From a virus (taxonomy: Duplodnaviria > Caudoviricetes), in IMG/VR virus record IMGVR_UViG_3300009514_000025, positions 1 to 61,657 of that record: 61,657 nucleotides of DNA; one strand, 5' to 3'. Shown one piece after another: positions 23,336 to 61,657 of this stretch. The notes under the pieces are model-generated. The model was not told the origin of the DNA. It was given only the letters and a program-made list of their open reading frames with translations, and searched no databases. Position 1 is the stretch's first letter, and each line of letters opens with the position of its first letter. A program made the translations under genes and the position numbers.

Positions 23336-23344
23336 GGAAAGACT

Positions 23345-46533: not shown

Positions 46534-47220
46534 TTATGGTGAACCAGTACATGTTGGTTTTCCATCAGTTGCAGCTGTTGGTTTACGTTCACAGACAGAA
46601 TCTGTACTTAATGTGCCATATTGATCGAATAAGTGGAATACACGTAATACGGTTGTACAGTCATCATCATATACCGTTAACGTTTTAGCAATGTCATCAA
46701 TTTTGGTTCTATTTGTATCAAATTTCAATATTAGGTCAACAACATCTTTTACAGCATCTATGTCAAGAAATAGCTGTGTGGTATCCGCCTTAATCTGATT
46801 TAACGCTAAACCAGTTGAACCAATGCCTAAGTGTTCGGTTCGGTCTTCATCCCAAACACCATCTATGATTGTTTCTTCAAACGGATTGATTTCTGCGCTT
46901 TGATAGCGATCTGTATTTGGTAAAGAGGAACCACCATCAGAACGTACCAAATATTTTTTCATTGGATCATAACCTATTGTATCTGTAAATAAAAAGGTAT
47001 AAAATCCATCTTTTCCCAATGGAGAACCACCATCGTCGATTTCTGACATGATTCCATCTGTAGACTGTCCACTTCCCCCCGGCGCACCAACTATTAATGT
47101 TTGAACAGCACCATTGACTTCCCATATTCTTACCTTGGGATATCCTGGTGTGACTGTAGCAATATCTGTAGCAGGCAACCCATTATTGGCAAAAATACTA
47201 TTAATTTCAATTTGTGCCAT
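46534..47220 (-). CDS. Putative virion protein
   Basis: TATAAATA at 47253-47260 on the minus strand; GGAG RBS before MAQIE; ends in TGSP. Confidence 0.6.
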   Translation of the reverse strand: MAQIEINSIFANNGLPATDIATVTPGYPKVRIWEVNGAVQTLIVGAPGGSGQSTDGIMSEIDDGGSPLGKDGFYTFLFTDTIGYDPMKKYLVRSDGGSSLPNTDRYQSAEINPFEETIIDGVWDEDRTEHLGIGSTGLALNQIKADTTQLFLDIDAVKDVVDLILKFDTNRTKIDDIAKTLTVYDDDCTTVLRVFHLFDQYGTLSTDSVCERKPTAATDGKPTCTGSP

Positions 47221-47323
47221 TCGGCTATTCTCCATTTATTACGTATATCATCTATTTATAAAAATAAATACAGAAACATCGCACCCATAAATATAAGAAA
47301 CACACTTGCAGGAATACGAAATC

Positions 47324-47563
47324 ATGGAAAATTTTTCATTAATCAAGAAATTAGACGAGCAAAAGGATGCAGAACCGTCCCCATTAGCCGAAGGCATTCC
47401 ATATCAGCAATACGAATTGGAGGTAGATGGGAAAGTTCAAGTAGTTAATATTCCTATAAAAGAAATAGACGCGTTTGAAAATACAATAGTAGAAACGAAA
47501 GAACCTCTAACCCGCAAAATATTGAAACGAATTCTTAGAGAACATCGCGGCGTTAGAGGCTAA
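47324..47563 (+). CDS. Hypothetical late protein
   Basis: ATAAATA at 47264 and 47288. Confidence 0.55.
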   Translation: MENFSLIKKLDEQKDAEPSPLAEGIPYQQYELEVDGKVQVVNIPIKEIDAFENTIVETKEPLTRKILKRILREHRGVRG

Positions 47564-47578
47564 TAATAGGGATAACAG

Positions 47579-48067
47579 ATGGCATTTGTTCTAACCAGAC
47601 CAATTTCTGGCGGCGGCGCGGGAATCTCTGGCATGACCACAACAAACATTAATGGTCAGCCGATGATAACATTGGAAGATATTACTCGCAGTAATAAGAT
47701 TCTTTCGGTAGCGGAAAATCCTGTTTCATTTGCAGAAAACGTATTATTACATAATGATTGGATTCAGATTGGAACCGCAAGCGATGCAAATACTGCTTTT
47801 GTTGCTGACTTCGATGGGACAATTGTTGCCGCTACTGGAATATGTGAAAATGTTAGAAATCATGATAAAAATATAAATCTCTACATTAATAGTACAGATC
47901 AGGGAGCGATAGGTTCATTTACTGGTTCGACTCTTGACACATTTATAAATACAATATTGAATATAGACTTTAACCAAGGCGACATGATTAGATTGCGCGC
48001 CGTAGATGGAATCACTGGAAAAATTGAAGACAGTGTTATCAAACTTACTATCAAATGGAGAGGATAA
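47579..48067 (+). CDS. Virion protein, stand-alone KWRG domain
   Basis: Paralogous to the C-termini of 48068..50989 and 51525..57365. Confidence 0.7.
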   Translation: MAFVLTRPISGGGAGISGMTTTNINGQPMITLEDITRSNKILSVAENPVSFAENVLLHNDWIQIGTASDANTAFVADFDGTIVAATGICENVRNHDKNINLYINSTDQGAIGSFTGSTLDTFINTILNIDFNQGDMIRLRAVDGITGKIEDSVIKLTIKWRG

Positions 48068-50989
48068 ATGAGCTTATTAATTAGAAATAAATTGGGTGGT
48101 AGTCCACCTGCGGCAGTCCCTATTGATGATTTGGGATTTGAGGTTGTATCGGGTACCGATTATAATCTATTAAATGAAGAGGCAGCAGATGTTCAATCGT
48201 CTGCGCAAACTGGTGGTGACTTAAATACCGCAATACTTGCAGGCGATATTGTTGTACTTAGTCCAAAGGATGGAACAACAGAACTTTCAGCAGCTAATAG
48301 TATAGCTGTCTTAAAACTTCACAATGATCCTAATTGGGGTATCAATGGAGCAAATCTTACTGATCTTGATGATGTTGATTTAACAGGTTCACCATTACCC
48401 GCAACCGGTGATGTTCTTCAACTTGATGGTTCTGGAAATTGGATAAATGTCCAACCAACTACGGTTGCTGGAAGCATTAATTTTGGCGATCTTGCTGATA
48501 TTAATCCTGATACCGGTTCACCATATCGACCTATCACTTCCTTTTATATTTTAGAAGGTGATGGTTCTGGTAGTTTAAATGTTGTAGATGGTACTACAGA
48601 TACTTCACTCTTTATTCCATGGATTGAAGACACGGCAGGCGCAGCAGTAGCTGGCGGTGTACAAACTGATCTTACTTTAACGTATAACGCGTCCACTAAT
48701 AAAATTGATGCGTCTGTTGATGACAGCTATCTTCGTAATGATGGTGATACATTAGATTCGGGAACATTAAACATTGCATCTGGTGCTTCAATTGTTGTTG
48801 CTACTGGTGCAAGCATTTCTTGGGCTGATGCGCCAACCAATGGTAATCATCTTGCTAATAAAACATATGTTGATAGTGTTGCTTCTGGTCTTGATACAAA
48901 AGAATCCTGTGATCTTGCTACGACGCCTGCAACGGGTTCTCCGCAAACTGGTTTTGGTAATATCCCAGGTTATGGATTTTCTGGTTCACCAGCAACTGGT
49001 ACATTTACTGGCGTAAATGTTTTCGATATTGATGGTGATTTATCACCTCCTAGTGTTGGATATCGTATTCTTGTTAAAGATCAGGATGATCCAAAAGAAA
49101 ATGGTATTTACGAGGTTACTGTTGTTGGTGGTTCACCACTTGGTTCAAGTTGTACTTTAGTACGTGCAGATGATTTTGATGGAGTGCCACCTGCTGAAGT
49201 TTCTGCTGGTTCATTTACATTTATTGAGCATGGCGTTAGTAATGCAGGCACTGGCTGGGTTGTAACTGGCACTGGTGATTTGACTGTTGATACGGATGAT
49301 ATCAATTGGTCACAATTCTCTGGTGCAGGCACATATACGACTGGTGATGGTTTAGGGTTAACAGGTACAGAATTCTATTTAGATATTAATAATCTGAATA
49401 CGATTGCTGTTGTTGGCGCGGATGAAATTGCTTTCAATGATCAAACCAACGATACAACTAAAAAACGTACATTCACAAGTCTTATTTCAGATTTAGGACT
49501 TTATACTTCTAGTAATTTAACAGCTTCTGATGGTGTGGTAATCACTGGTGGTGATATTCAATTAGATATTACTAATCTTCCATCTTCAACACCTTCATTA
49601 TCAGCTGAAATGGTATTTGATACTGGTGGTACTGGTATACACAATAAAGCAACCGTACAATCTTTCTTCAATCAAGCGAATGTTGTTTATAATATCACAG
49701 CAAATGGTATTCTTACCAGAACAGCAGATGATACATATGCATCACGCACAATAGTAAAATCTACTACAGCTAGTGAAGAAGGTATCATAGTAACTAATGG
49801 TAATGGTGTTTCTGCTAATCCATCTATTGGTATTGATATTGAAGGTACTACTGCTTCTGCCTCTGATCTAGCATCAACCGATGAGTTCCTTGGTTTTAAT
49901 GGCACAAATAACCGTGCATTTACTGGTCAGCAAATTGCTGATGGTGTTTCAGCTATATTGGGTGGTCTTGGTAATGCATATACAACGATTCAAGGCGACT
50001 CTGGTTCAGCATCTGCAGGTAGTTCAAGTGCTACAATATCATTCATTGGCGCAGCCAATGGTGGTATTCTTACTGTTGCTACTGATTCTGCACCAGACAC
50101 TGTAACCTTTGCACTTGATCTCCATGATTTAGCTGCAGGTAGTGGAACTGTTGATCTTACAGATGTGCTTGCAGTTGCAGAAGGTGGTTCACCACTTGGA
50201 TCAACTGTTCAATACACTTTCCAAGATGTTATTACCGATTTAAATATTGTAAGTGGTGTTAATGGTACACCTGGTATTGTTATCGGTGATGGTGCTGGTA
50301 ATTATACAACTAATACAATTGCCGTAAATGGTGTTGGTAATAGAGATGGTCTTATTGTAGTAAATGGTGATATGACAGGTTCACCATATGATAGTACTAT
50401 TACATTTGGTTTGGATATTAACAATAATGCAACAGCAGGTGAAGATTTAGCAGCCGCCGATAAGATTATTGCTTATAATGGCTCCCAAGCCGCTAACCAT
50501 GCATTTACAGGACAAGAAGTTGCAGATGGTGTTTCAACAATGTTGGGACTTGGCGGTATTACCGTTACTACAATTAATGGTCAAGAAGTTCTTACACTTG
50601 TTGATACAACACGTTCTAACAAAGTTCTTTCTGTTGGCGATACTTCTGTCACGTGGTCAGAAAACAAAGTTGGTAACAATGATTGGTTACAAATCGGTGG
50701 TGCAGTTGATGCTCTTAGCGGTTATCTTGTTCCATTGAACGCAACGATTGTTAAAGTTACTGCACATACGGCAGATAATAAAGGAAACACAAAACCAATC
50801 AACTTGTATATTGATGGTTCACTCAATAGTACTATTGGCACATTTAATGGCCCATCAGGCGAAGATGATTTCAGAGATGTAACATTGAATATTGATGTTA
50901 ACCAAGATCAAAAACTACGTTTACGTGGTGGTACTGGTGGTAATATTGAAGATACGGTGGTTACAATTTGGTTGAAATGGAGAGGATAA
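48068..50989 (+). CDS. Fibre/decoration protein
   Basis: ANKTYVDS, RILVKDQ..ENGIY motifs typical of phage fibres; C-terminal KWRG domain. Confidence 0.75.
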   Translation: MSLLIRNKLGGSPPAAVPIDDLGFEVVSGTDYNLLNEEAADVQSSAQTGGDLNTAILAGDIVVLSPKDGTTELSAANSIAVLKLHNDPNWGINGANLTDLDDVDLTGSPLPATGDVLQLDGSGNWINVQPTTVAGSINFGDLADINPDTGSPYRPITSFYILEGDGSGSLNVVDGTTDTSLFIPWIEDTAGAAVAGGVQTDLTLTYNASTNKIDASVDDSYLRNDGDTLDSGTLNIASGASIVVATGASISWADAPTNGNHLANKTYVDSVASGLDTKESCDLATTPATGSPQTGFGNIPGYGFSGSPATGTFTGVNVFDIDGDLSPPSVGYRILVKDQDDPKENGIYEVTVVGGSPLGSSCTLVRADDFDGVPPAEVSAGSFTFIEHGVSNAGTGWVVTGTGDLTVDTDDINWSQFSGAGTYTTGDGLGLTGTEFYLDINNLNTIAVVGADEIAFNDQTNDTTKKRTFTSLISDLGLYTSSNLTASDGVVITGGDIQLDITNLPSSTPSLSAEMVFDTGGTGIHNKATVQSFFNQANVVYNITANGILTRTADDTYASRTIVKSTTASEEGIIVTNGNGVSANPSIGIDIEGTTASASDLASTDEFLGFNGTNNRAFTGQQIADGVSAILGGLGNAYTTIQGDSGSASAGSSSATISFIGAANGGILTVATDSAPDTVTFALDLHDLAAGSGTVDLTDVLAVAEGGSPLGSTVQYTFQDVITDLNIVSGVNGTPGIVIGDGAGNYTTNTIAVNGVGNRDGLIVVNGDMTGSPYDSTITFGLDINNNATAGEDLAAADKIIAYNGSQAANHAFTGQEVADGVSTMLGLGGITVTTINGQEVLTLVDTTRSNKVLSVGDTSVTWSENKVGNNDWLQIGGAVDALSGYLVPLNATIVKVTAHTADNKGNTKPINLYIDGSLNSTIGTFNGPSGEDDFRDVTLNIDVNQDQKLRLRGGTGGNIEDTVVTIWLKWRG

Positions 50990-50992
50990 TAA

Positions 50993-51505
50993 ATGAGTTT
51001 TACAATTCGTAATCTTACAGCTGGAACAATTGCGATTGATGATCTTGGCTTATCACTTGCTGCGTATGAGGATTATGATTTAACTCAAGATGATGCAAGA
51101 GATATTGCACAAAGTACAGACTTAATTGCTGCAATTAATGCAGATAATGTTCTTGTTGTAGATCCTATAAGTACAGGTTCACCAGTTACATTATTATCAA
51201 AAGCAAATAGTTTAATTTGTGTAAGTGTCGCCAATAATCCACATTTTAGGATTATTGGCGGCGAGCTTGCACATTTAGATGATGTTAAAGATACACTACC
51301 TACAGATGGTTATGTTCTTACTTTTGACGCAGGAGCTAGTAAATGGGAACCGGCGGCGGCCGCGGCCGGCGCGGGTGGTATAACACAATTTCCATTTTAC
51401 CGTGCTAATGGTGTATTAGATCCTATACCAGTAACTTACATCGCAACGTTTCCATTCTATAGGGCAGACGGCACACTAGATCTTATACCAATAGATGCAT
51501 CATAA
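50993..51505 (+). CDS. Virion accessory protein
   Basis: Shares the IRN..IDDLG N-domain and the LDDV repeat; C-terminal FPFYRA(N/D)G.LD duplication. Confidence 0.65.
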   Translation: MSFTIRNLTAGTIAIDDLGLSLAAYEDYDLTQDDARDIAQSTDLIAAINADNVLVVDPISTGSPVTLLSKANSLICVSVANNPHFRIIGGELAHLDDVKDTLPTDGYVLTFDAGASKWEPAAAAAGAGGITQFPFYRANGVLDPIPVTYIATFPFYRADGTLDLIPIDAS

Positions 51506-51524
51506 TAAAATGAGATATTAAATA

Positions 51525-54500
51525 ATGGCAGATAAATTACCAATTAAGGCAAAGTGGTCAGGTGGATCGCCAGATGATGTTATTGCTTTACAAGAATTTC
51601 AATCGACTGATACTATAGCCCTTAATTATCTCTCTGGCGGTGCATCGCCTTCTGAAGGCCATGTACTTACTTGGGGCGGTAGCCCATTGGGATGGATTAC
51701 AGCTGCCCCAGATCTTGGCGCTAATAACTTAGATGACTTATTAGATGTTTTCATTACAGGAGCAGGTTCACCAGAAGTACCAGCAGACAATGAAGTTCTT
51801 GCTTATGATAGTAGTTCTGGTAATTGGATTAATCAAACCGCATCCGAAGCTGGGTTATCTATAGTAGGCCACACACATACCTTAAATGAACTTAGTAATG
51901 TATATGTATCTGCTGGTTCACCAGAAATAACAATAGGTTATGTGCTTACTTATGGTGGTAGTCCTTTGGGTTGGTATGCAATTGCGCCCGCTGTCGGAAT
52001 AGATGCGTTAGATGATTTAACAAACGTTACCATTGCATCTGTTACATCAGGCGAAATTTTAGTATATCAGGGATCACCAGCCGAATGGCAAAATAATACA
52101 TTGGCAGAAGCAGGCATTAGTGCTATAGGCCATACACACGCAATGGTTGATATCACAGATTCAACGTGGATTAGTGATATTACAAGTGAAAATCTTGAAG
52201 ATTTAAACAACGTTTCATTAACAGGTTCACCACAACCAGTATCAGGTGATTTATTAAGATGGAACGGTTCAACGTGGATCAATTATCCAGATAGTAATTT
52301 TTCATCATCTGGTCATAATCATACTAAATCTGATATTACAGATTTTACCGAAAGCGATTATGTTCATACTACCGGCACTGAAACTGTTGGTGGTAATAAA
52401 ACATTTAGTAATGATATTATAATTTCGGGTGATCTTACTGTTAATGGTACTACAACTACCATTAATACAACTACACTTGAAATCGGCGATAACATTTATC
52501 TTCTCAATGCAGACATGGATGATGGTAGTCCAATTCCTGCACCTACACAAGATGCTGGTTTTGAAGTCGAGCGTGGTATAGTTGATAATGTGTCTTGGCT
52601 TTGGGATGAAACTGTCGATACGTTTAGACCTAAATTAGGAACAGGTGAAGCATATTTAGGATATGTATTAGATCCTACTAATGATAACCATATTGGTGAT
52701 CGTGGGTATAACGATTTAAGATATTCTAATATAAGTCATGCACACGCAATAAATGAGTTAAGTGATGCTACTATAACTTCACTTACAGCAGGCGAAGTAT
52801 TAATTTCTGCGGGTTCACCACTTGGTTGGATTAACCAAACATTAGCTGAAGCAGGCATCTCATCTGATTCACATACACACATTATAAATGATTTAACAGA
52901 TATAACTATTGCATCTGTTACATCTGGTGAAATTCTTGTCTATCAAGGTTCTCCAGCCGAATGGCAGAACAATACATTAGCAGAAGCAGGTATTAGTGCT
53001 GTTGGTCATACACATGTTATGGTTGATATTACAGATTCAACATGGATCAGTGATATTACAAATGAACCAATTGCCGACCTTAGTGATGTGACAATTAATG
53101 CTGTCGGGTCAGGCGAAGTCCTTGTTTATCAGGGTTCACCAGCCGAATGGCAAAATAACACATTAGCAGAAGCGGGAATTTCTGCGATTGGTCATACGCA
53201 TGTCATGGTTGATATTACTGATTCAACTTGGATTAGTGATATTACAGCAGAACCTATTGCCGATCTTAGTGATGTTACTGTTGCTTCTCTTGGTGCAGGT
53301 GAAATATTAGTTGCTGTCGGATCACCGCTTACATGGATTAATCAAACATTAGCAGAAGCAGGTATTGCATCTGATTCACATACACATATAGTTAATGATT
53401 TAACAGATGTAACTATTGCATCTGTCGGGTCAGGCGAAGTCCTTGTTTATCAGGGTTCACCAGCCGAATGGCAAAATAACACATTAGCAGAAGCGGGAAT
53501 TTCTGCAACAGGCCACACACATGTGATGGTAGACATTACTGATAGTACTTGGATTAGTGATATAACAGCAGAATCATTGGATGATCTTAGTGATGTTTAT
53601 ACGCCAGCCCCACAAGTAGGTGAATTGCTTACTTACGGTGGTAGTCCGTTGGGTTGGTATGCGGCCGCACCCGCTGGTGGAGTAGATGCATTAGATGATT
53701 TAACCGATGTAGTAATTACAGGTTCGGTAGGTTCACCATTAACTCCCGCTGATAATGAGTTGCTTGCTTTTGATATTGGTTCAGGTAATTGGATTAATCA
53801 AACAGCAGCACAAGCAGGGTTATCTGTAACTGGTCATACACATGTTATGGTTGATATTACTGATAGTACTTGGATTAGTGATATTACAGGAGAACCTATT
53901 GGTGATCTTAACGACGTTACAGTTACATCACTTACATCAGGTGAAGTATTACTTTCCAGTGGTTCACCACTTGGATGGATAAATGCAACGCTCGCAGAAG
54001 CAGGCATATCTGCAACTGGCCATACCCATGTTATGGTTGATATTACAGATTCTACATGGATTAGTGATATAACAGCCGAAAATATTGAAGACTTAAACAA
54101 TGTTTCATTAACAGGTTCCCCAGCGCCAGTATCTGGGGATTTATTAAGATGGAACGGTTCAACATGGACAAACTATCCAGATAGTAATTTCTCATCGTCT
54201 GGTCATACACATGTCAAGGCGAATATTACAGACTTCACTGAATCTGACTATGTTCACACGACGGGTGTTGAAACTGTTGGTGGTAATAAAACCTTTAGTA
54301 ATAATATAATTATCTCTGGTGACTTAACAGTTAACGGTACAACGACTTCTATTAATACTACCACACTTGAAATAGAAGATAATATTTATCTTCTTAATTC
54401 AGGAATGGTAGGAAGTCCTCTTGTTGCTCCTACACAAGACGCTGGCTTCGAAGTCGCCCGTGGTACAGCTACAAACGTATCATGGTTGTGGGATGAAACT

Positions 54501-57365
54501 TTTGATGTATTTAGACCTAAAATTGGTGCAGCAGAAGCGCACTTAGGATATGTACTTGATCCAACCAATGATAACCATGTCGGTGATCGTGGATATAATG
54601 ATCTTAGATATTCTTCTATTAGTCACGTACACGCCGTGGATGATTTATCCGACGCAACAATTACTTCACTTGGTACTGGTGAAATATTACTTTCAAGTGG
54701 TTCACCACTTGGATGGATAAATGCAACACTTGCAGAAGCAGGCATTGCATCTGATTCTCATACACACATATTAAATGATTTAACTGATGTAGTTATTACG
54801 CAAGGTTCACCTCTTGTTGATAATGACGTTCTTGCTTTTGACACTACATCGGGTAATTGGATTAACCAAACAGCAGCACAAGCTGGTTTGTCTGTAACAG
54901 GTCATACGCATGTTATGGTTGATGTTACCGACAGTACTTGGATTAGTGATATCACCGCTGAACCAATCGCGGATTTATCTGACGTTACAGTAACTTCACT
55001 TACAGCAGGTGAAATATTGGTTGCTGTTGGTTCACCGCTTACATGGATTAACCAAACATTAGCAGAAGCGGGAATTTCTGCAACAGGACACTCGCATACT
55101 AAATCTGATATTACAGATTTTACTGAATCTGATTATGTTCATATTACTGGTACTGAAACAGTATCAGGCGCGAAATCATTTACTGCAAGTACAACAAAAA
55201 TAGGTGGAACAACAGCTTCATCAGAAGTTCTTTCTGTTCAAACCACATCAGCAGATACTTGGTTAGAAATGTTAAACAATGGAGGTACTGGTAAAGGTGC
55301 TTTCTTTGGTTTAACAACCAATGATTTTCAAATATGGAACTATCAAGCAGGTAGCATTTCTTTTTATACAGATACGAGCGATTCATCTGGTACTGTAAGA
55401 TTTGTTTTAACAAATGATGGAAATTATATTTTCAGTAATCTTACCAGTAGTGGAATGGGCATTGCTACAATAGATGGATCGGGATATCTTGGAAGAGATG
55501 CAGATTTAGAATTACTTTCTGATGTTACTGTAACTTCTCTTGGTATTGGCGAGATATTACTTTCCAGTGGTTCACCGCTTGGATGGATCAATGCTACATT
55601 AGCAGAAGCAGGCATTTCCGCAACCGGACACTCGCATACAAAATCTGACATTACAGATTTTACTGAATCTGACTATGTTCATACTACCGGCGTTGAAACT
55701 ATTGGTGGTAATAAGACCTTTAGTAATAATGTTATAGTTAGTGGTGATCTTACTGTTAATGGTACTACAACTACCATTAATACAACTACACTTGAAATCG
55801 GCGATAACATTTACTTATTAAACGCAGATATGGATGATGGAAGTCCTATTCCTGTACCAACACAAGATGCTGGTTTTGAAGTTGAACGCGGCGTAGTCGA
55901 TAATACATCGTGGCTTTGGGATGAAACATTAGATGTATTCAGACCTAAATTAGGAACAGGTGAAGCATATTTGGGATATGTTCTTGACCCTACTAACGAC
56001 AATCACGTTGGTGATCGCGGGTATAATGATTTAAGATATTCTAATATAAGCCATTTACATGCAGTAGATGATTTATCTGATGCTACTATAACTTCACTTA
56101 CAACTGGCGAAATTTTATTTTCAAGCGGCTCGCCGGTTGGATGGACAAATGCAACATTAGCTGAAGCGGGCATCGCGTCTGATTCACATACACATCTAAT
56201 AAATGATTTAACGGATGTTATTGTATCTTCTGTTACATCAGGTGAAATTTTAGTATATCAAGGTTCTCCTGCGGAATGGCAAAATAATACATTAGCAGAG
56301 GCTGGAATATCAGCAGTTGGTCATACTCATGTTATGGTTGATATTGCCGATTCTACATGGATCAGTGATATAACAAATGAACCTATTAGTGATCTTAATG
56401 ATGTTACAATCACTTCACTTGCTGCCGGTGAAATATTAGTTGCTGTTGGTTCCCCACTTACATGGATTAACCAAACGTTAACAGAAGCAGGCATAGCATC
56501 TTCTTCACATACACACGTATTAAGTGATCTTACTGATGTATATACAACAGGCTCGCCCGCGCCACAACCTGGAGATGTTCTTACTTACGGCGGCAGTCCA
56601 GTTGGTTGGTATGCATTAACAACTGCTGGCGGCGTGGATTCATTAGATGATTTAACAGATGTAACTATTACTGGAACTGGTTCACCTGAAGTACCTGCAG
56701 ATAATGAAGTATTAGCATATGATAGTGGATCTAGTGAATGGATTAATCAAACACCAAAAGAAGCTGGCTTAGTTGCAGGACCTACATCTTCAACAGATAA
56801 TGCAGTCGTTCGTTGGGATGGTACAAATGGTGCATTAGTTCAAGATAGTGGTGTAATGATTGATGATAGCGATAACGTTGTTATTCCTGGTAGCATAAAG
56901 ATTAGTAATGCTGCCTCCCCTATTATTTCTGGTGTAATGACTATTGAAGATATTAATGGTCAACCAATGATGTGCATGGAAGATACAACACGCGCCAACA
57001 AAAAATTAACAATAGAAACGGTGAATATAGCGTGGTCTGAATCAACATTAACCAATTTTGACTGGATGCAAGTTGGAGCAGCGATTGATGCAGATTCAAG
57101 TTATATTATGCCATTTGATGGAACAATAGTTAAGGCAACCGGACATTGTGAAAATGCTTTGGGTAACACGAAGGATATTAGATTGTATGTTAATACAACA
57201 TTAAATGGCACAGCAATGGGAACGCTTACTGGTGGCGCAAACGCAACATTTAATACAACATTAAACATTGATTTCAGTGCGGGTGATCGTATACGCCTCC
57301 GTGCATGGACGGGTGGCACAATTCGAGATACTATTGTCACCTTATGGATTAAATGGAGAGCATAA
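51525..57365 (+). CDS. Very long repetitive fibre protein (1946 aa)
   Basis: Many DLxDVT..GE.L..GSP..W.N.TLAEAGI..HxH repeats; three GDLTVNGTTT.INTTTL modules; KWRA end domain. Confidence 0.85.
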   Translation: MADKLPIKAKWSGGSPDDVIALQEFQSTDTIALNYLSGGASPSEGHVLTWGGSPLGWITAAPDLGANNLDDLLDVFITGAGSPEVPADNEVLAYDSSSGNWINQTASEAGLSIVGHTHTLNELSNVYVSAGSPEITIGYVLTYGGSPLGWYAIAPAVGIDALDDLTNVTIASVTSGEILVYQGSPAEWQNNTLAEAGISAIGHTHAMVDITDSTWISDITSENLEDLNNVSLTGSPQPVSGDLLRWNGSTWINYPDSNFSSSGHNHTKSDITDFTESDYVHTTGTETVGGNKTFSNDIIISGDLTVNGTTTTINTTTLEIGDNIYLLNADMDDGSPIPAPTQDAGFEVERGIVDNVSWLWDETVDTFRPKLGTGEAYLGYVLDPTNDNHIGDRGYNDLRYSNISHAHAINELSDATITSLTAGEVLISAGSPLGWINQTLAEAGISSDSHTHIINDLTDITIASVTSGEILVYQGSPAEWQNNTLAEAGISAVGHTHVMVDITDSTWISDITNEPIADLSDVTINAVGSGEVLVYQGSPAEWQNNTLAEAGISAIGHTHVMVDITDSTWISDITAEPIADLSDVTVASLGAGEILVAVGSPLTWINQTLAEAGIASDSHTHIVNDLTDVTIASVGSGEVLVYQGSPAEWQNNTLAEAGISATGHTHVMVDITDSTWISDITAESLDDLSDVYTPAPQVGELLTYGGSPLGWYAAAPAGGVDALDDLTDVVITGSVGSPLTPADNELLAFDIGSGNWINQTAAQAGLSVTGHTHVMVDITDSTWISDITGEPIGDLNDVTVTSLTSGEVLLSSGSPLGWINATLAEAGISATGHTHVMVDITDSTWISDITAENIEDLNNVSLTGSPAPVSGDLLRWNGSTWTNYPDSNFSSSGHTHVKANITDFTESDYVHTTGVETVGGNKTFSNNIIISGDLTVNGTTTSINTTTLEIEDNIYLLNSGMVGSPLVAPTQDAGFEVARGTATNVSWLWDETFDVFRPKIGAAEAHLGYVLDPTNDNHVGDRGYNDLRYSSISHVHAVDDLSDATITSLGTGEILLSSGSPLGWINATLAEAGIASDSHTHILNDLTDVVITQGSPLVDNDVLAFDTTSGNWINQTAAQAGLSVTGHTHVMVDVTDSTWISDITAEPIADLSDVTVTSLTAGEILVAVGSPLTWINQTLAEAGISATGHSHTKSDITDFTESDYVHITGTETVSGAKSFTASTTKIGGTTASSEVLSVQTTSADTWLEMLNNGGTGKGAFFGLTTNDFQIWNYQAGSISFYTDTSDSSGTVRFVLTNDGNYIFSNLTSSGMGIATIDGSGYLGRDADLELLSDVTVTSLGIGEILLSSGSPLGWINATLAEAGISATGHSHTKSDITDFTESDYVHTTGVETIGGNKTFSNNVIVSGDLTVNGTTTTINTTTLEIGDNIYLLNADMDDGSPIPVPTQDAGFEVERGVVDNTSWLWDETLDVFRPKLGTGEAYLGYVLDPTNDNHVGDRGYNDLRYSNISHLHAVDDLSDATITSLTTGEILFSSGSPVGWTNATLAEAGIASDSHTHLINDLTDVIVSSVTSGEILVYQGSPAEWQNNTLAEAGISAVGHTHVMVDIADSTWISDITNEPISDLNDVTITSLAAGEILVAVGSPLTWINQTLTEAGIASSSHTHVLSDLTDVYTTGSPAPQPGDVLTYGGSPVGWYALTTAGGVDSLDDLTDVTITGTGSPEVPADNEVLAYDSGSSEWINQTPKEAGLVAGPTSSTDNAVVRWDGTNGALVQDSGVMIDDSDNVVIPGSIKISNAASPIISGVMTIEDINGQPMMCMEDTTRANKKLTIETVNIAWSESTLTNFDWMQVGAAIDADSSYIMPFDGTIVKATGHCENALGNTKDIRLYVNTTLNGTAMGTLTGGANATFNTTLNIDFSAGDRIRLRAWTGGTIRDTIVTLWIKWRA
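53101..53506 (+). repeat. 85-bp exact direct repeat inside the fibre gene
   Basis: 53101-53185 equals 53422-53506. Confidence 0.8.
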
Positions 57366-57368
57366 TAG

Positions 57369-58679
57369 ATGTCACAGTATTTAAGAAATTTAACAGATTC
57401 ACCTGTATATAATGTAGAACTTACCGATCTTGGTATTACGGTTGAGGTTGGCGTTGACTATGATACGTCTGAAATAGATTCGGGCGATTTAGGTAATAGC
57501 ATTGATTTAGTAACTGCTATTCAAGCTGGTGAAGTTGCTTTTTTGAACGATGAAACTTCGCCATGGGTTCCATTATCTTCTCAAGAAAGCCAAGCTATTA
57601 TTAATGCATCTAATAATGCTGCTACTAATATTTTAGGAACAGAAAACTTCTTTCCAAAATGGGCAGATGATTGTCCTTGTACGCTCACAGAATCGAACAT
57701 GTATCAAGATCCTTCTACAGGATATATTGGTGTTAATTTACAAGGAAGTCCATTAACACCGGCGACAGATTTTGATATTAATGGTTCATTACAATTAACA
57801 GGTTCAAGTTCTGGTTATACAAGATTTGATGTCCCTGCCAGTGGCGATAATGTTATCTATACATTACCAAGTAATGATGGTGATTCAAGTCAGGTACTTC
57901 AAACAGACGGGTCTGGAACACTTACTTGGGTTGATCAAACGGTAGGTACAAGTGTTCTTAACGATTTAGATGATGTAACAACTTCTTCACCAACATCTGG
58001 TGAAGTTCTTGTATATCAAGGTTCGCCTGCTGAATGGCAAAACAACACACTTGCGGAAGCAGGCATTAGTGCTGTTGGACACTCGCACTCACTTGGTGAT
58101 TTATCAGATGTTAACGTTACTGCATCAGGCTCGCCATTGCCAACAGATGGACAAGTATTAACATATGATACAACAAATGGATGGCAACCAGAAAACCCAT
58201 ATGGTGCTGGTTGCGGTATGGTTATTCAGCGTCTTCATGGATCTGTTGCTGAAAAATCTGGTACATCAGAAATTCCATATGATGACACTACACCACTTGT
58301 TACAGAAGGTACAGAAGTATGGTCACGAGCCATAACACCAGTAAATACGGCAAATGATATAGAATTAACATGTTCTTTAACACTCGATGCTTATGTTTCG
58401 GGCGGTATGGGTGGCGGGGATATGGAAGTTGTTGTTACTTTCTTTAGAGATTCAACCTGCATTGGTGCAATGGCACAATTTATAAGTAGTTACGACGAAC
58501 AACAAGTCCATATTTCATTAACTGATTCACCATCTACTACTTCAAGTATAACGTATTCTTGTAGAATTGGCAGATTGGGTTCAGAAGGAACATGGTATGT
58601 TAATAGACTTAGCTCAAGTAAATTTAATGGGATGTTAGCCAAACAAGGTTACATCTTGAAGGAGATAGATAATGCCTAA
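57369..58679 (+). CDS. Fibre-associated protein
   Basis: Shared N-domain, VLQTDGSGTLTW, shared C-terminal domain ending GYILKEI. Confidence 0.7.
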   Translation: MSQYLRNLTDSPVYNVELTDLGITVEVGVDYDTSEIDSGDLGNSIDLVTAIQAGEVAFLNDETSPWVPLSSQESQAIINASNNAATNILGTENFFPKWADDCPCTLTESNMYQDPSTGYIGVNLQGSPLTPATDFDINGSLQLTGSSSGYTRFDVPASGDNVIYTLPSNDGDSSQVLQTDGSGTLTWVDQTVGTSVLNDLDDVTTSSPTSGEVLVYQGSPAEWQNNTLAEAGISAVGHSHSLGDLSDVNVTASGSPLPTDGQVLTYDTTNGWQPENPYGAGCGMVIQRLHGSVAEKSGTSEIPYDDTTPLVTEGTEVWSRAITPVNTANDIELTCSLTLDAYVSGGMGGGDMEVVVTFFRDSTCIGAMAQFISSYDEQQVHISLTDSPSTTSSITYSCRIGRLGSEGTWYVNRLSSSKFNGMLAKQGYILKEIDNA

Positions 58680-59451
58680 TTATATGAATTTGATGGGTGA
58701 GCATTATCCAGAAATAGAATGCTACTGTGATGGCGATCCTACTGTTTATGGAAACATTACATTTGTCGGCTCGCCAACAATTTCACAGGGTACGTTAGAT
58801 GCATTGACTGAATCCCCACGACTTTACCAGATTGAAGCACCGTTGGGTTCTCCGCTTCCAGCAGATGATACATTGTTGCAATATGAAGAAACCGATAATA
58901 CTTGGCACTATAAAACAGCAGCCGATGCAAGCGTTTCTGTTATCGGTCATCCACATACTGAATCTGACATTACAGATTTACAACCAAGTAAAGTGATTCA
59001 GCATATGGATGGTGCTATATCAAAAACATCTGGCACAATTGAAATTGCTGGCGGTGATGTAACGCCACCCATAACAGAAGGTGTTGAACTTTGGTCGCAG
59101 GCGATAACACCCACAGATGCTGCAAACACGGTAGAGATAACAACAAATATGATCCTTTCTGCATATGCAAATGCCGGTCATGGTTATGGTGCACTTGACG
59201 TTGCTGTTACATTTTATAGAGATTCAACATGTATTCTTGTCTTGCCACATAGTTTACAGAGTGCAGAAGCGCATCATTGTGGTAGTACCTTTATTGATAC
59301 CCCGGCAACCACATCTAGTGTAACATATTCATGTAGGGTAGGAAGAACATCTGGAGAAGGCGCTTGGTATGTTAATGGTCTTTATTTAAAGGAATTTCAG
59401 GGCTTGATTGCTAACCAAGGTTATACGGTAAAGGAGATAAGAAATGCCTAA
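58672..59451 (+). CDS. Fibre-associated protein (MPNY family)
   Basis: MPNY N-domain; C-domain paralogous to its neighbours. Confidence 0.7.
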   Translation: MPNYMNLMGEHYPEIECYCDGDPTVYGNITFVGSPTISQGTLDALTESPRLYQIEAPLGSPLPADDTLLQYEETDNTWHYKTAADASVSVIGHPHTESDITDLQPSKVIQHMDGAISKTSGTIEIAGGDVTPPITEGVELWSQAITPTDAANTVEITTNMILSAYANAGHGYGALDVAVTFYRDSTCILVLPHSLQSAEAHHCGSTFIDTPATTSSVTYSCRVGRTSGEGAWYVNGLYLKEFQGLIANQGYTVKEIRNA

Positions 59452-61264
59452 TTACGTAAATATATTGGCAGAATATTACCCTGACATACCATATTATTGT
59501 GTTGGTGATCCCACCGTTTATGGTAATATCGTATTTCTCGGGTCACCAATAATTTCTCAAGGTACATTAGATGCTTTAACAATATCACCACTTGTTTATC
59601 CAGTTGAAGTTGCAGCCGATACGCTTACCAATCTTGATATACTACAATATAATAGTAGTAATAATCATTGGGAAAATAAATCGCTTGCAGAAGCTGGTAT
59701 ATCGGCTACGGGACATTCACACAATAAATCTGATATTTCTGATTTTACTGAATCTGACTATGTTCATACGACTGGTGTTGAAACTATTGGTGGAAATAAA
59801 ACATTCAGTAATAATGTCACTATTACTGGTGATTTGTCTGTTGATGGTACTACAACAAGCATCAATACTACTACTCTTGAAATAGGCGACAATATTTATT
59901 TATTAAATGCAGATATGGATGATGGAAGTCCTATTCCTTCCCCTACACAAGACGCTGGTTTTGAAGTTGAACGGGGCACAGCCACAAATGTTTCATGGTT
60001 GTGGGATGAAACATTAGATACATTTAGACCCAAATTGGGCGCTGGCGAGGCTGCTTTAGGATACATTCTTGATCCTACAGATGCTAATGGAGTTGGTGAT
60101 CGTGGTTATAATGATTTACGATATGCACCACTTAGTCATACACATGTTATGGTTGATATTACTGATAGTACTTGGATTAGTGATATTACGGGAGAGTTAT
60201 TAAGTGATCTCAATGATACAACAATTTCATCAATCGGTGCCAACGAAATTCTTAAATGGAATGGCTCTGCATGGATTAATAACACACTCGCCGAAGCAGG
60301 TATTTCTGCAACAGGTCATACGCATGTTATGGCTAACATTACAGATAGTACTTGGATTAGTGATATTACAAGTGAGAACTTAGAAGACCTTAGTAACATA
60401 ACAATTACATCACTAGGTACAGACGAACTATTATTTACACAAGATGGTTCTACATGGATTAATCAAACATTAGCAGAAGCAGGTATTTCTGCAACAGGCC
60501 ATACGCATGTTATGGCTAACATTACAGATAGTACCTGGATTAGTGATATAACAGGTGAAGACTTGACCGATCTTAATGATGTTACAATTACATCACTAGG
60601 TACAGACGAACTATTATTTACACAAGATGGTTCTACATGGATTAATCAAACATTAGCAGAAGCAGGTATTGCAACATCTGGACATACTCATGCGCTTAAT
60701 GATCTTACTGATGTAACTATTGGTTCACCAACACCAACTACAGATGATATTCTAACGTTTAATGGTAGTACATGGCAAGCCGCTCCGATTGATAGCAGCG
60801 CCATGGGACACTATAAACAGTTAGTCTATGGTGCAATTAGTAAATCTTCAGGTACATCTTCAATACCAGACGATGACACAATTCCAACATCATCGGAAGG
60901 TTATGAAATTTGGTCAGATACTATAACACCAGGTTCAACAGATGCTGTAATTAAAATTGGATTTTCTATTACCATTGACACATATGTCAGTGGTGGAATG
61001 GGTGGCGGTGATATGGATGTTGCAGTTACAGTATTTAGAGATTCAACATGTATTGGTGCAATGTCACAATATATAGATAGTTATAACCAAGAACAGATGT
61101 CAATTAATATTGTTGATGCACCAAGCACGACATCATCTATAACATATTCAGCACGCATTGGACGTTTAACTTCTTCTGGTACGTGGTATGTTAACAGATT
61201 ACAATCAGAAAAACTTGGTGGTATGCTTGAAAAGCAAGGCTATACTATTGAAGAGATTGACTAA
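59444..61264 (+). CDS. Fibre protein (MPNY family)
   Basis: MPNY N-domain, same repeats as the 1946-aa protein, shared C-domain. Confidence 0.75.
   Translation: MPNYVNILAEYYPDIPYYCVGDPTVYGNIVFLGSPIISQGTLDALTISPLVYPVEVAADTLTNLDILQYNSSNNHWENKSLAEAGISATGHSHNKSDISDFTESDYVHTTGVETIGGNKTFSNNVTITGDLSVDGTTTSINTTTLEIGDNIYLLNADMDDGSPIPSPTQDAGFEVERGTATNVSWLWDETLDTFRPKLGAGEAALGYILDPTDANGVGDRGYNDLRYAPLSHTHVMVDITDSTWISDITGELLSDLNDTTISSIGANEILKWNGSAWINNTLAEAGISATGHTHVMANITDSTWISDITSENLEDLSNITITSLGTDELLFTQDGSTWINQTLAEAGISATGHTHVMANITDSTWISDITGEDLTDLNDVTITSLGTDELLFTQDGSTWINQTLAEAGIATSGHTHALNDLTDVTIGSPTPTTDDILTFNGSTWQAAPIDSSAMGHYKQLVYGAISKSSGTSSIPDDDTIPTSSEGYEIWSDTITPGSTDAVIKIGFSITIDTYVSGGMGGGDMDVAVTVFRDSTCIGAMSQYIDSYNQEQMSINIVDAPSTTSSITYSARIGRLTSSGTWYVNRLQSEKLGGMLEKQGYTIEEID
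60401..60670 (+). repeat. 183-bp-period tandem repeat with an 87-bp exact core
   Basis: 60401-60487 equals 60584-60670. Confidence 0.8.
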
Positions 61265-61275
61265 GGAAAATAATT

Positions 61276-61657
61276 ATGCCTAATTATATTGACATTATCG
61301 GAACATACTTTCCTTCTATGGATGCATATTCCACCGGAGATCCAACTGACTATAATACTATAGTTTTTAATGGTTCACCAATACTTTCACAAAGTACATT
61401 GGATGCTTATGCTACACAACTTGAAACTGAAGCACCAGTAGTAAATGGTGATCATCTTATTATTGTAGAAGATAATCCAGGTGATGGGGAAATTTTGTCA
61501 TATGATTTTACAAGTAAAAAATTTGCACATAATACATTAGCAGAAGCGGGAATTTCTACAACAGGACACACACATACAGAATCTGATATTACAGATTTAC
61601 AGTCATATCTACTTGATATTACATCTGAACCATTAAGTGATCTTAGTGATGTAACTA
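61276..61657 (+). CDS. Fibre-associated protein (MPNY family), truncated by the window end
   Basis: MPNYIDIIGTYFPSMDAYSTGDPTDYNTIVFNGSPILSQSTLDA...TLAEAGIS..HTH. Confidence 0.75.
   Translation, partial: MPNYIDIIGTYFPSMDAYSTGDPTDYNTIVFNGSPILSQSTLDAYATQLETEAPVVNGDHLIIVEDNPGDGEILSYDFTSKKFAHNTLAEAGISTTGHTHTESDITDLQSYLLDITSEPLSDLSDVT

What the first reader, a model, noticed from the sequence alone, without database searches (positions are those of the whole stretch)
46534..61657. About 50 Gly-Ser-Pro motifs across unrelated virion proteins: possible modification sequon
Seen: by hand count, GSP occurs about 29 times in the 1946-aa fibre and 8 times in the 973-aa protein. It occurs 1-3 times in each of 46534 (which ends TGSP), 50993, 57369, 58672, 59444 and 61276, and also in the capsid insertion (GSGSPATG) and neck (TGSPIG). 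Contexts are non-homologous (DDGSPIP, YQGSPAE, DTGSPYR, FVGSPTI) and codons vary (ggt tca cca, ggt agt cca, gga tcg cca, ggc tcg ccc), so repeat expansion alone does not explain it. Some repeat copies lack it (LKWNGSAW, FTQDGSTW), so it looks like an optional loop insert. I did not notice it in the replication proteins. Inference: a recognition tag for O-glycosylation or proline-directed phosphorylation that coats the virion surface, or a docking motif for a decoration protein.
Basis: partly seen in the sequence, partly recalled or inferred. Interest (0 to 1): 0.8.

Follow-up and report, generated by a model that had tools for sequence, protein, structure and literature searches.

The report
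Gly-Ser-Pro tag on phage tail fibres
The tail-fibre proteins of this uncultured giant phage carry the exact three-residue motif Gly-Ser-Pro about 28 times more often than chance, mostly as small loop insertions that close relatives lack, which looks like an undescribed recognition tag, probably a site of chemical modification, though nothing that reads it has been found.

Summary
There are 51 GSP in the window. Forty-nine lie in the nine ORFs from 46534 on (4,912 aa; 1.7 expected). Two lie in the other 14,533 aa. GSP is the commonest tripeptide of the fibre module. Collapsing repeats still leaves 21 distinct contexts.

The motif is exact: GTP 1, GAP 1, SSP 1. It is selected at protein level, not inserted as DNA.

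In orthologues of the 973-aa protein, our GSPs are 3-4-residue loop insertions or substitutions. Only two close relatives share them. GSP-rich orthologues form two separate clades.

Whole related genomes are either rich (89 observed, 15.9 expected) or at chance (14 observed, 15.0 expected). A poor genome is nested among rich ones.

The proteins are not unrelated: they are modular trimeric-type fibres. The motif does not coat the virion: sheath, tube, portal and baseplate have none here.

No glycosyltransferase or protein kinase was found in the window, which is about 18% of the genome. Candidate writers in a complete relative remain unproven, and one, the PrkA operon, also occurs in a GSP-poor phage.

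My best reading is a recognition or modification tag (0.45). The main rival is a structural turn. This scan noted the same motif earlier in four other genomes.

The parts
46534..47235 (-). 233-aa protein of unknown function, conserved upstream of the fibre block; 2 GSP (residue 70; residues 231-233 are the C-terminus)
   Evidence: orthologues in rich and poor relatives; no Pfam/PHROG family
48068..50989 (+). 973-aa fibre-like protein with a C1q/TNF-like C-terminal head; 8 GSP at residues 11, 107, 150, 290, 306, 355, 707, 771, all in predicted coil
   Evidence: the sites are insertions or substitutions shared only with P0002 and P0003
50993..51505 (+). 170-aa protein with weak tail-fibre PHROG matches; 1 GSP (residue 62)
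51525..57365 (+). 1946-aa fibre built of units of about 45 aa (L.DL.DV...G[DE].L...W.N.TLAEAGI..GH.H); 29 GSP in loop 1, loop 2, the ...DDGSPIPAPTQDAGFEVERG element and the N-terminus; the C-terminal roughly 150 aa are like those of the 973-aa protein
   Evidence: (BppL_N); the region holds 29 H.H motifs
57369..58679 (+). 436-aa fibre protein with two of the same repeat units; 3 GSP
58672..59451 (+). 259-aa protein; 2 GSP; its N-terminus (..GDPT.Y..I.F.GSP..SQ.TLDA) is paralogous to those of 59444 and 61276
59444..61264 (+). 606-aa fibre protein; 3 GSP; it also holds repeat units without GSP (LKWNGSAW, FTQDGSTW)
61276..61656 (+). ORF open at the window end (127 aa seen); 1 GSP in the paralogous N-terminus
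25668..25676 (+). single GSP in the major capsid protein (residue 166 of 25173-26648), inside a 4-residue insertion unique to this phage
   Evidence: G002-G006 have a gap there
28820..28828 (+). single GSP in the neck protein (residue 462 of 27437-30535), context ELKVYSTGSPIGWIN like loop 2 of the fibre unit; shared with G002 only

Best explanation
Gly-Ser-Pro, usually preceded by a small residue and followed by Leu, Ala, Ile or Val, is a short linear motif. This phage lineage has repeatedly written it into exposed loops of its tail-fibre proteins. In its closest relatives the motif also sits in sheath, baseplate and neck proteins, and it is then kept.

The most likely reason is that a trans-acting factor reads the tag. 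That factor is most plausibly an enzyme acting on the serine, by O-glycosylation, phosphorylation or another serine chemistry. The outer tail would then carry a lineage-specific chemical coat.

Shown: the enrichment, the exactness, the loop position, the gain by insertion, the lineage restriction with at least two changes of state, and selection at protein level.

Inferred: that something reads the motif, and that the serine is modified.
For: 1. Enrichment and exactness.
- 49 GSP in 4,912 aa against 1.7 expected.
- GTP 1, GAP 1, SSP 1, TSP 1, ASP 2.
- Ser-Pro 60 against Thr-Pro 15, although Thr is the commoner residue.
- 21 contexts remain after collapsing repeats.

2. The motif acts at protein level.
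- The word GGTTCACC occurs 25 times in frame and never out of frame on coding strands.
- TCA before Pro is a genome-wide habit: 21 of 42 Ser-Pro pairs outside GSP use it.
- A rich relative uses mixed codons.

3. Gain by insertion.
- In the 32-row alignment of 973-aa orthologues, our eight GSP triplets are matched by GSP in 3, 2, 3, 2, 2, 8, 3 and 5 rows, our own included.
- Orthologues at 60-65% identity have a gap there, as at site 707 (28 of 32 rows), or other residues, GNP at site 771.
- 7 of the 8 sites persist in P0003 at 63% identity while the flanks differ.

4. Lineage trait.
- Among the 73 homologues, 9 have 6-16 GSP and 64 have 0-4.
- On a tree of 53, the rich ones form two starred clades (99*, 100*). 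At least 2 changes are needed, and 0 of 500 label shuffles do as well.
- Among the 120 listed homologues of the 606-aa fibre, query included, 95 have none and 7 have 3 or more.
- Among 105 further representatives, 70 have none and two have 20 and 48.

5. Whole genomes.
- The complete relative G002 has 89 GSP against 15.9 expected.
- G003 has 14 against 15.0, G005 14 against 12.3, G006 9 against 12.3, G007 14 against 13.2, and G004 23 against 7.1.
- The poor G003 is nested between rich genomes on a five-protein core tree (95*).

6. Surface position.
- All 8 sites of the 973-aa model are coil (p about 0.001).
- G002's sheath, 80% identical to ours, has a 27-residue insertion with three GSP in its variable middle region.
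- Our capsid GSP is a 4-residue insertion unique to this phage.

7. Turnover like that of a sequon. Six rich orthologues of the second clade hold 34 GSP sites between them (a 35th lies only in two poor rows). 15 are private to one sequence and most are small insertions.

8. Background. 80 unrelated IMG/VR fibre loci reach at most 1.45 GSP per 1000 aa, against 10 here.
Against: - No writer or reader was found. The window has no glycosyltransferase or protein kinase among the 39 of 52 ORFs scanned. It has no PF01973 or PF04055 match in six frames. It is only about 18% of a genome.
- The complete GSP-rich relative G002 has no GT2 (PF00535) and no prolyl-hydroxylase-type PF13640 match.
- The one candidate that tracks the trait inside the clade is the PrkA-DUF444-SpoVR operon. 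It is also present in Ralstonia phage RsoM2USA, whose 100-kb structural region is at chance (6 against 7.8 expected). It is also present in the huge phage LR745206, where a 40-kb fibre stretch shows 7 against 2.3.
- Only one other IMG/VR locus holds a close homologue of G002's radical-SAM gene. It is not flanked by GSP-rich proteins (2 against 0.94).
- The hydrophobic residue after Pro (37 of 48) and the recurrent GSP-x-G-W would also suit a packed structural turn.
- The structure model is weak (pLDDT 65, pTM 0.31, modelled as a monomer although the protein is probably a trimer).
- No mass-spectrometric data exist.
Confidence: 0.45

Rival explanations
1. GSP is a purely structural turn. Gly gives freedom and Ser-Pro makes a rigid capped turn. 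Some fibre lineages would favour it for stability or protease resistance, and nothing reads or modifies it.
For: - All 8 sites in the model are coil, two of them hairpin turns between strands.
- The frequent GSP-L/V/I-G-W and the hydrophobic residue after Pro (37 of 48) look like packing.
- Poor orthologues use a conserved G-N-P turn at one of the same places.
- Cyanophage S-B68 fibres use GAP and GTP in their own repeats (12 and 7).
- No writer was found.
Against: - A turn should tolerate Thr, Asp, Asn or Ala in place of Ser. Here GTP 1, GAP 1, GDP 3 and GNP 0 stand against GSP 49.
- The trait is all-or-none between sister genomes with the same fold: 89 against 15.9 in one and 14 against 15.0 in the other.
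- It spreads at once into unrelated folds: fibres, sheath, baseplate, neck and capsid.
- Most sites are added residues, not replacements of an existing turn.
Confidence: 0.3
2. GSP loops are docking sites for a non-enzymatic partner. This could be a decoration or assembly protein of the phage, or a host surface ligand that the fibres touch.
For: It has the same exactness, loop position and lineage restriction as the tag reading. The motif is concentrated on the receptor-facing fibres.
Against: - Three residues are very little for a protein-protein interface.
- The sites have no shared spacing or flanks.
- No gene present in all rich sequences and absent from the poor ones emerged, other than the PrkA operon, small ORFs and one GSP-bearing protein.
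Confidence: 0.12
3. The signal is a by-product of repeat expansion, or of a DNA-level process that pastes the oligonucleotide GGTTCACCA.
For: 29 of 49 sites lie in one repetitive fibre. 18 fall in one context cluster. GGTTCACCA makes up 19 of 49 sites.
Against: - 21 contexts remain after collapsing.
- 20 GSP lie in the 2,966 aa outside the fibre.
- Non-repetitive orthologous blocks of G002 and G004 have GSP as their top tripeptide: 40 against 1.67 and 18 against 2.06.
- The 9-mer's codons follow codon usage and a Ser-Pro codon-pair habit.
- The 8-mer never occurs out of frame.
- The sites are older than a 63%-identity split.
Confidence: 0.03

Closest known systems
Virion O-glycosylation of mycobacteriophages (Freeman et al. 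2023; seen here only as cited and summarised in a passage of PMC12619734)
   Same: Phage structural proteins would carry a covalent surface modification made in the cytoplasm during assembly, as a lineage-specific trait.
   Different: By that passage, glycans sit at the C-termini of the capsid and tail-tube subunits. Here an exact internal tripeptide is scattered over loops, mainly of fibres. No glycosyltransferase was found in the window, and no chemistry is known.
Maf-type (PF01973) O-glycosylation of flagellins with CMP-activated ulosonic acids (recalled; also named in scan note e1-5919668)
   Same: Cytoplasmic Ser/Thr O-glycosylation of surface-exposed parts of a polymerising structural protein. 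The complete GSP-rich relative G002 has a PF01973 match over the cut-off, a CTP_transf_3 cytidylyltransferase and a DAHP_synth_1 (KdsA-like) gene. The GSP-poor G003 has no PF01973 or CTP_transf_3 match, and no BLAST homologue of the gene behind the DAHP_synth_1 hit.
   Different: Flagellin glycosylation has no strict sequon (recalled). Co-occurrence rests on one rich and one poor complete genome. None of the 15 further relative contigs searched has PF01973, but all are fragments.
Sequon gain and loss in glycan shields of enveloped viruses (recalled)
   Same: A short exact motif is gained and lost quickly in exposed loops. Many sites are private to one sequence: 15 of the 34 GSP sites of six rich orthologues.
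   Different: The motif, the chemistry and the cellular machinery differ. Here modification itself is unproven.
Anaerobic sulfatase-maturating radical-SAM enzymes (AslB/anSME), which act on (C/S)-x-(P/A)-x-R (motif recalled; 'AslB' is JGI's name for homologues P0308 and P0309)
   Same: A radical-SAM enzyme family that acts on a serine next to a proline. G002 carries three tandem radical-SAM genes with Cys-rich C-termini between GSP-bearing proteins, and G003 lacks them.
   Different: The sulfatase motif itself is absent from the fibre module (0 matches), and in GSP the Pro is at +1, not +2. The single other IMG/VR homologue locus is not next to GSP-rich genes.
BclA of the Bacillus anthracis exosporium (fold match; its glycosylated collagen-like stalk is recalled)
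   Same: A trimeric surface fibre ending in a C1q/TNF-like head. Foldseek matches of the 973-aa model's C-terminus include BclA, C1q-like proteins and phage 7-7-1 tail fibres.
   Different: BclA's stalk is tandem Gly-x-y collagen. Here GSP triplets are isolated: 0 GSPG..G and 3 G..GSP.

Membership tests
Phage virion O-glycosylation system (mycobacteriophage type) | Phage-encoded glycosyltransferase(s) with the structural genes | tested here: not met
   No glycosyltransferase family among 29 window ORFs scanned with Pfam or 19 scanned with PHROGs. 13 small ORFs were not scanned. The window is about 18% of the genome. G002 has no PF00535 match.
Phage virion O-glycosylation system (mycobacteriophage type) | Glycans shown on virion proteins by mass spectrometry | not testable with these tools
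   The phage is uncultured and no proteomic data were available.
Maf/PF01973 flagellin-type glycosylation | A PF01973 transferase together with CMP-sugar synthesis genes in the same genome | tested here: inconclusive
   None in the window. In G002 there is one match over the cut-off (36 bits against 34.6) and one weak match, plus CTP_transf_3 (E 3.5e-47) and DAHP_synth_1. PF01973 and CTP_transf_3 are absent from G003, G001, G005 and G006. PF01973 is also absent from 15 further fragments.
Proline-directed Ser/Thr phosphorylation | Both Ser-Pro and Thr-Pro used as sites | tested here: not met
   SP 60 against TP 15 and GSP 49 against GTP 1, with 461 Ser and 578 Thr in the region.
Proline-directed Ser/Thr phosphorylation | A protein kinase encoded by or available to the phage | tested here: inconclusive
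   The window has only an AAA_33 P-loop kinase-like domain (43050-44243; 25.6 bits, below the 27-bit cut-off). This protein also occurs in poor relatives. The PrkA-type operon is present in G002, G001 and G004 and is cleanly missing at the syntenic site of G003. The PrkA-positive phage RsoM2USA is nevertheless GSP-poor.
Sulfatase-type formylglycine motif (anSME/AslB substrates) | (C/S)-x-(P/A)-x-R around the target residue | tested here: not met
   0 matches in the nine fibre-module proteins. GSP.R occurs once.
Collagen-like Gly-x-y repeat | Tandem Gly-x-y triplets | tested here: not met
   GSPG..G 0, G..GSP 3, and G..G..G.. 4 in 4,912 aa.
Trimeric phage fibre with a C1q/TNF-like head (structural class of the carriers) | C-terminal jelly-roll head similar to C1q/TNF/BclA | tested here: met
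   46 Foldseek matches at E 0.001 or better, covering about 130-145 columns. They include C1q-like proteins, BclA, PRD1 P5 and phage 7-7-1 fibres. The pLDDT of that part is about 85-93.

The most novel reading that the evidence does not exclude
A group of uncultured giant phages runs a dedicated virion-tagging system. An enzyme, still to be identified, recognises the exact tripeptide Gly-Ser-Pro and modifies its serine on fibres, sheath and baseplate. Candidates seen in a complete relative are a PrkA-type serine kinase operon, a Maf-like transferase with CMP-sugar genes, and three radical-SAM enzymes. Phage lineages that own the enzyme accumulate GSP loops by insertion, at least twice independently, much as enveloped viruses accumulate glycan sequons. 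This would be the first defined sequon for phage particle modification.
Probability: 0.35. Interest if true: 0.85.

Novelty: new variant of a known kind. Interest (0 to 1): 0.72.

Why it matters
If the tag is read by an enzyme, it would be the first short, exact sequon known for modification of phage particles. It would also be directly testable. The motif predicts which residues to examine by mass spectrometry. The rich and poor sister genomes (G002 and G003) predict where to look for the writer.

A chemical coat on fibres and sheath would bear on three things: host recognition, resistance to proteases or to host defences that bind virions, and the engineering of phage surfaces.

Even if it proves purely structural, it would still be unusual. 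An exact tripeptide would have spread by insertion into many unrelated folds within one lineage, more than once, which is an uncommon mode of protein evolution.

Tried and rejected
1. DNA-level oligonucleotide insertion. Rejected on codon and frame statistics.

2. Repeat expansion alone. Rejected.

3. Close relatives by DNA in GenBank phages. None found. By protein, the cultured relatives (XacN1 group) share the capsid at 50-62% identity but have no full-length orthologue of the 973-aa protein.

4. IMG/VR scan with the 973-aa family gave only distant central-domain matches. These served as background.

5. The whole records behind the metagenome loci L104, L085 and L120 could not be searched because they are not held. 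The second rich clade is therefore known from 42 kb only.

6. Writer hunt.
- GT2 and P4H-type families are absent from G002.
- G002's radical-SAM family has one other IMG/VR locus, without GSP-rich neighbours.
- The PrkA operon tracks the trait within the clade. It fails in RsoM2USA and is at most weak in LR745206.
- A PrkA scan of IMG/VR returned only four loci because the search patterns chosen were poor. The one new contig is not held.

7. P0224 (48 GSP) found no relative in IMG/VR.

8. No solved structure covers the repeat unit. Only the BppL_N-like segment matches lactococcal phage baseplate proteins.

9. Literature searches found no description of a GSP motif on phage particles: 'tail fiber + glycosylation + jumbo phage', 'bacteriophage + virion + O-glycosylation + tail fiber + mass spectrometry', and 'Gly-Ser-Pro + glycosylation'. 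Supplementary files were not consulted.

10. Not run: a complex (trimer) prediction, a second structure job and read mapping.

Full report
**What the window is.** The 61,657-base window is the whole record held for this virus. CheckV puts its completeness at about 18%. It encodes a T4-like contractile-tail module:
- portal, major capsid protein, a second Gp23-like protein, large terminase, sheath, tube and neck;
- gp25-like and gp5-like baseplate parts;
- an SbcCD-like nuclease, a helicase and homing-endonuclease-like genes.

The capsid protein is 50-62% identical to those of Xanthomonas phages XacN1 and Xoo-sp13, Stenotrophomonas phages CM1 and RAS14, and Ralstonia phage RsoM2USA. This is therefore a fragment of an uncultured jumbo myovirus of that group. 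No GenBank phage matches the fibre region at DNA level.

**Checking the observation.**
- I fixed a set of 52 non-overlapping ORFs. GSP occurs 51 times: 49 in the nine ORFs from 46534 to the window end (4,912 aa) and 2 in the other 43 ORFs (14,533 aa).
- The region's own amino-acid composition predicts 1.73 GSP. A first-order Markov model predicts 11.3.
- GSP is the commonest tripeptide of the region; the next has 27.
- 49 of 60 Ser-Pro pairs follow Gly, and 49 of 62 G-x-P are GSP. GTP, GAP, SSP and TSP occur once each.
- Thr-Pro occurs 15 times although Thr outnumbers Ser, 578 to 461.
- The residue after Pro is Leu, Ala, Ile or Val in 37 of 48 cases.

**Repeats.** The 1946-aa fibre is built of units of about 45 residues: L.DL.DV.[IV]...(loop 1)...G[DE].L....(loop 2)W.N.TLAEAGI...GH.H. 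Some units are followed by VMVDITDSTWISDIT.
- GSP sits in loop 1 (TGSP..P..G), in loop 2 (.GSP..W) or in both.
- It also sits in a recurring ...DDGSPIPAPTQDAGFEVERG element, near the N-termini of the two large proteins, and in three paralogous N-termini (58672, 59444, 61276).
- Clustering the 49 sites by flank identity of 40% or more leaves 21 contexts. 20 GSP lie outside the repetitive fibre, in 2,966 aa.
- Repeat expansion inflates the count but does not create the signal.

The carriers are not unrelated. They share these units. The 973-aa protein and the fibre also share a C-terminal domain that Foldseek places with C1q/TNF-like trimeric heads, among them C1q-like proteins, BclA, PRD1 P5 and phage 7-7-1 fibres. 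The 29 H.H motifs recall the metal-binding HxH motifs of T4 fibre proteins; that is recalled, not tested.

**DNA or protein?**
- GGTTCACCA encodes 19 of the 49 sites.
- The 8-mer GGTTCACC occurs 25 times in frame and never out of frame on coding strands.
- Outside GSP, Ser before Pro is TCA in 21 of 42 cases and TCT in 1 of 42. The codon choice is therefore a genome-wide codon-pair habit.
- A GSP-rich relative uses mixed codons.
- The sites are shared with an orthologue at 63% protein identity, far beyond synonymous saturation.
- The constraint therefore acts on the protein.

**Homologous units elsewhere lack GSP.**
- In the fibres of Synechococcus phage S-B68 and Xanthomonas phage Rb1, the same unit has N-G-[ST]-x-W in loop 2.
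- A regular expression found 237 such units in the 105 further representatives of an exhaustive profile search plus our 606-aa fibre protein. Fifteen have GSP in loop 2, and these lie in only 5 proteins.

**Orthologues of the 973-aa protein.** A search returned 73 homologues.
- In a 32-row alignment, the eight GSP triplets of our protein are matched by GSP in only 3, 2, 3, 2, 2, 8, 3 and 5 rows, our own included.
- The sharers are mainly P0002 (84% identical) and P0003 (63%).
- Orthologues at 60-65% identity have a 3-4-residue gap, for example EG----VNTV against EGGSPLGSTV. At other sites they have different residues, such as GNP, GDI or GTG.
- GSP counts per homologue are bimodal. Nine have 6-16 and the other 64 have 0-4.
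- On a maximum-likelihood tree of 53 sequences (quick search, LG+G4), the rich ones form two separate starred clades, each nested among poor ones. At least two changes are needed, and 0 of 500 label shuffles do as well.
- The six rich sequences of the second clade hold 34 GSP sites between them. A 35th site lies only in two poor rows of that alignment. 15 are private to one sequence, 9 are shared by two, 6 by three, 1 by four and 3 by five. Most are small insertions relative to poor orthologues.
- This is fast gain and loss of an exact motif.

**Other fibre families show the same split.**
- Of the 120 listed homologues of the 606-aa fibre protein, query included, 95 have no GSP, 16 have one, 2 have two and 7 have three or more. 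Three of the rich ones come from one 12-kb contig.
- Of 105 further representatives related to the fibre, 70 have none and 21 have one. A few are extreme, with 20 in 1,130 aa and 48 in 2,911 aa.

**Background.**
- 80 unrelated IMG/VR fibre loci hold 130 GSP in 358,596 aa of ORFs against 97 expected. The maximum is 1.45 per 1000 aa, against 10 per 1000 here.
- Of 41 metagenome loci with orthologues, only the two from one 147,644-bp contig are rich. Their proteins carry 14, 6, 5, 2 and 2 GSP.

**Whole genomes.** A capsid-based scan of IMG/VR gave close relatives, which I fetched.

| Record | Size and completeness | Capsid identity to ours | GSP observed | GSP expected |
|---|---|---|---|---|
| G002 | 363,531 bp, 100% | 86% | 89 | 15.9 |
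| G003 | 291,658 bp, 90% | 78% | 14 | 15.0 |
| G004 | 116,802 bp, 34% | 78% | 23 | 7.1 |
| G005 | 229,507 bp, 65% | 65% | 14 | 12.3 |
| G006 | 190,391 bp, 54% | 66% | 9 | 12.3 |
| G007 | 183,069 bp, 52% | 66% | 14 | 13.2 |

Sizes and completeness are.
- The simple expectation is accurate for ordinary relatives. The trait is close to all-or-none.
- In orthologous, non-repetitive structural blocks, GSP is the top tripeptide in G002 (40 against 1.67) and in G004 (18 against 2.06). No tripeptide stands out in G003.
- In G002 the motif is also in the sheath (4), a baseplate protein (3) and the neck (2).
- G002's sheath is 80% identical to ours. It carries a 27-residue insertion with three GSP (DGSPVGSPIVYVDGSPL) in its variable middle region, where ours has a gap.
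- G001 is a 61.5-kb fragment syntenic with G002. It has fibres with 20, 20 and 9 GSP, while 62 of its 67 ORFs have none.
- A tree of five concatenated core proteins gives (((window, G002) 100*, G003) 95*, G004) 100*. The poor G003 sits between rich genomes, and the labels need two changes.
- Our capsid GSP is a 4-residue insertion unique to this phage. The neck GSP is shared with G002 only.

**Structure.** AlphaFold2 of the 973-aa protein with the 32-row alignment gave a modest monomer model (pLDDT 65.1, pTM 0.31). All eight GSP lie in windows of three coil residues. The background fraction of such windows is 0.42, so p is about 0.001. Sites 355 and 707 are turns between two strands. The model cannot show solvent exposure in the trimer.

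**Who reads it?**
- Nothing in the window qualifies. 29 ORFs were scanned by Pfam and 19 by PHROGs, 39 of 52 in all. Six-frame searches for PF01973 and PF04055 were both empty.
- In G002, 157 of the 161 ORFs of 140 aa or more without a G003 homologue were scanned; four that span the ends of fetched stretches were left out. They include the following families:
  - three tandem radical-SAM genes with Cys-rich C-termini. They lie at 213-216.6 kb, directly between GSP-bearing proteins. JGI names two of their homologues as the sulfatase-maturation enzyme AslB;
  - a PF01973 (Maf/MptE-like) match over the cut-off and a weaker one;
  - a CTP_transf_3 cytidylyltransferase and a DAHP_synth_1 gene;
  - sulfotransferases with an APS kinase;
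  - a PrkA-DUF444-SpoVR operon.
- G002 has no GT2 and no PF13640 match.
- I listed G002 ORFs absent from all four poor genomes but present in at least one other rich sequence. Of the genes with a family assignment in my scans, only the PrkA operon is on that list. The rest are small ORFs, window-shared ORFs and GSP-bearing proteins. The operon is in G002, G001 and G004. It is cleanly missing at the syntenic site of G003, where the flanking genes lie 1.8 kb apart instead of 4.9 kb.
- Against it: RsoM2USA has PrkA and SpoVR (passages and Table 2 of PMC8504454; tblastn). Its 100-kb structural region nevertheless has 6 GSP against 7.8 expected. The PrkA-positive huge phage LR745206 has 7 against 2.3 in a 40-kb fibre stretch.
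- The only other IMG/VR member of G002's radical-SAM family is not flanked by GSP-rich genes.
- The writer therefore remains unidentified. These genes are leads, not findings.

**Comparison with what is known.**
- The sulfatase motif is absent from the fibre module, collagen-like tandem triplets are absent, and Thr-Pro is not enriched.
- The nearest described phenomena are mycobacteriophage virion glycosylation (known to me here only through a passage in PMC12619734), Maf-type flagellin glycosylation, and sequon turnover in viral glycan shields. The last two are recalled.
- Three full-text searches found no description of a GSP motif on phage particles.
- This scan's notebook holds four earlier AI notes of the same motif in other genomes. 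By sequence, none is related to this window. Those notes are unchecked leads. Here I confirmed the loop-insertion pattern independently. I tested the transferase idea only in part.

**Verdict.**
- The best-supported reading is a lineage-specific recognition tag in exposed loops, probably a modification site on the serine (0.45).
- A purely structural turn motif is the main rival (0.30).
- A docking motif comes next (0.12).
- A repeat or DNA by-product is unlikely (0.03).

Noticed in passing
window 51525-57365 and 57369-61264: The nine fibre-module proteins hold 29 H.H motifs (HTH alone 20 times against 0.22 expected). Most close a repeat unit (..AGI...GHTH). This recalls the metal-coordinating HxH motifs of T4 fibre proteins (recalled) and suggests metal-stapled trimeric repeats.
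   Followed up: partly
window 48068-50989 (residues ~830-973) and 51525-57365 (C-terminal ~150 aa): Both large proteins end in the same domain (..TTRANK.L...W.KWR). In the model it folds like C1q/TNF/BclA trimeric heads. These are probably two alternative receptor-binding tips.
   Followed up: partly
window 37519-37965 and 38007-38945: Two endonuclease-like genes sit inside the tail module, between the tube-related gene and the second Gp23-like gene. One is TnsA-like (N-terminal endonuclease domain). The other has DUF4379 and DUF723 matches and a sub-threshold T5orf172 match. A 39%-identical copy of the second lies next to the fibres of G001, so it looks mobile.
   Followed up: partly
window 39382-40692 (-): A second Gp23-family protein (436 aa) lies on the opposite strand to the capsid gene. 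It is probably the vertex (gp24-like) protein.
   Followed up: no
whole window, coding strands: There is a strong codon-pair habit. Ser before Pro outside GSP is TCA in 21 of 42 cases and TCT in 1 of 42, although TCT is the commonest Ser codon otherwise (0.29).
   Followed up: partly
G002 (IMG/VR relative) 213044-216648, loci L219/L243: Three tandem radical-SAM genes (402, 400 and 407 aa; CxxxCxxC plus Cys-rich C-termini) lie between GSP-bearing proteins. JGI names two homologues AslB-like. The genes are absent from G003, G004 and G001.
   Followed up: partly
G002 243918-248744; G001 21278-26101; G004 104220-109232: A PrkA (YeaG)-DUF444 (YeaH)-SpoVR (YcgB) operon sits in the phage genomes, 69-89% identical between them. 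It is precisely missing at the syntenic site of G003. It is also present in RsoM2USA and in three roughly 640-kb uncultured phages.
   Followed up: partly
G002, first 165 kb (members of alignment A4): The Pfam scan of G002-specific ORFs hit Cas5fv_helical (E 1e-61) and Cas_Csy4 (E 2e-49). A type I-F-like CRISPR-Cas module seems to be encoded by this relative. A chaperonin (Cpn60), NadA and RF-1 domain genes were also hit.
   Followed up: no
L001 (Synechococcus phage S-B68 fibre): The fibre of this cyanophage uses its own recurrent G-x-P motifs inside repeats (GAP 12, GTP 7, GSP 1). G-x-P loops may be a wider fibre theme, with lineage-specific middle residues.
   Followed up: no
G002 266165-266944 (259 aa): This small protein has 7 GSP. 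It has orthologues in G004 and G001 and is cleanly absent at the syntenic site of G003. No Pfam family matched.
   Followed up: partly
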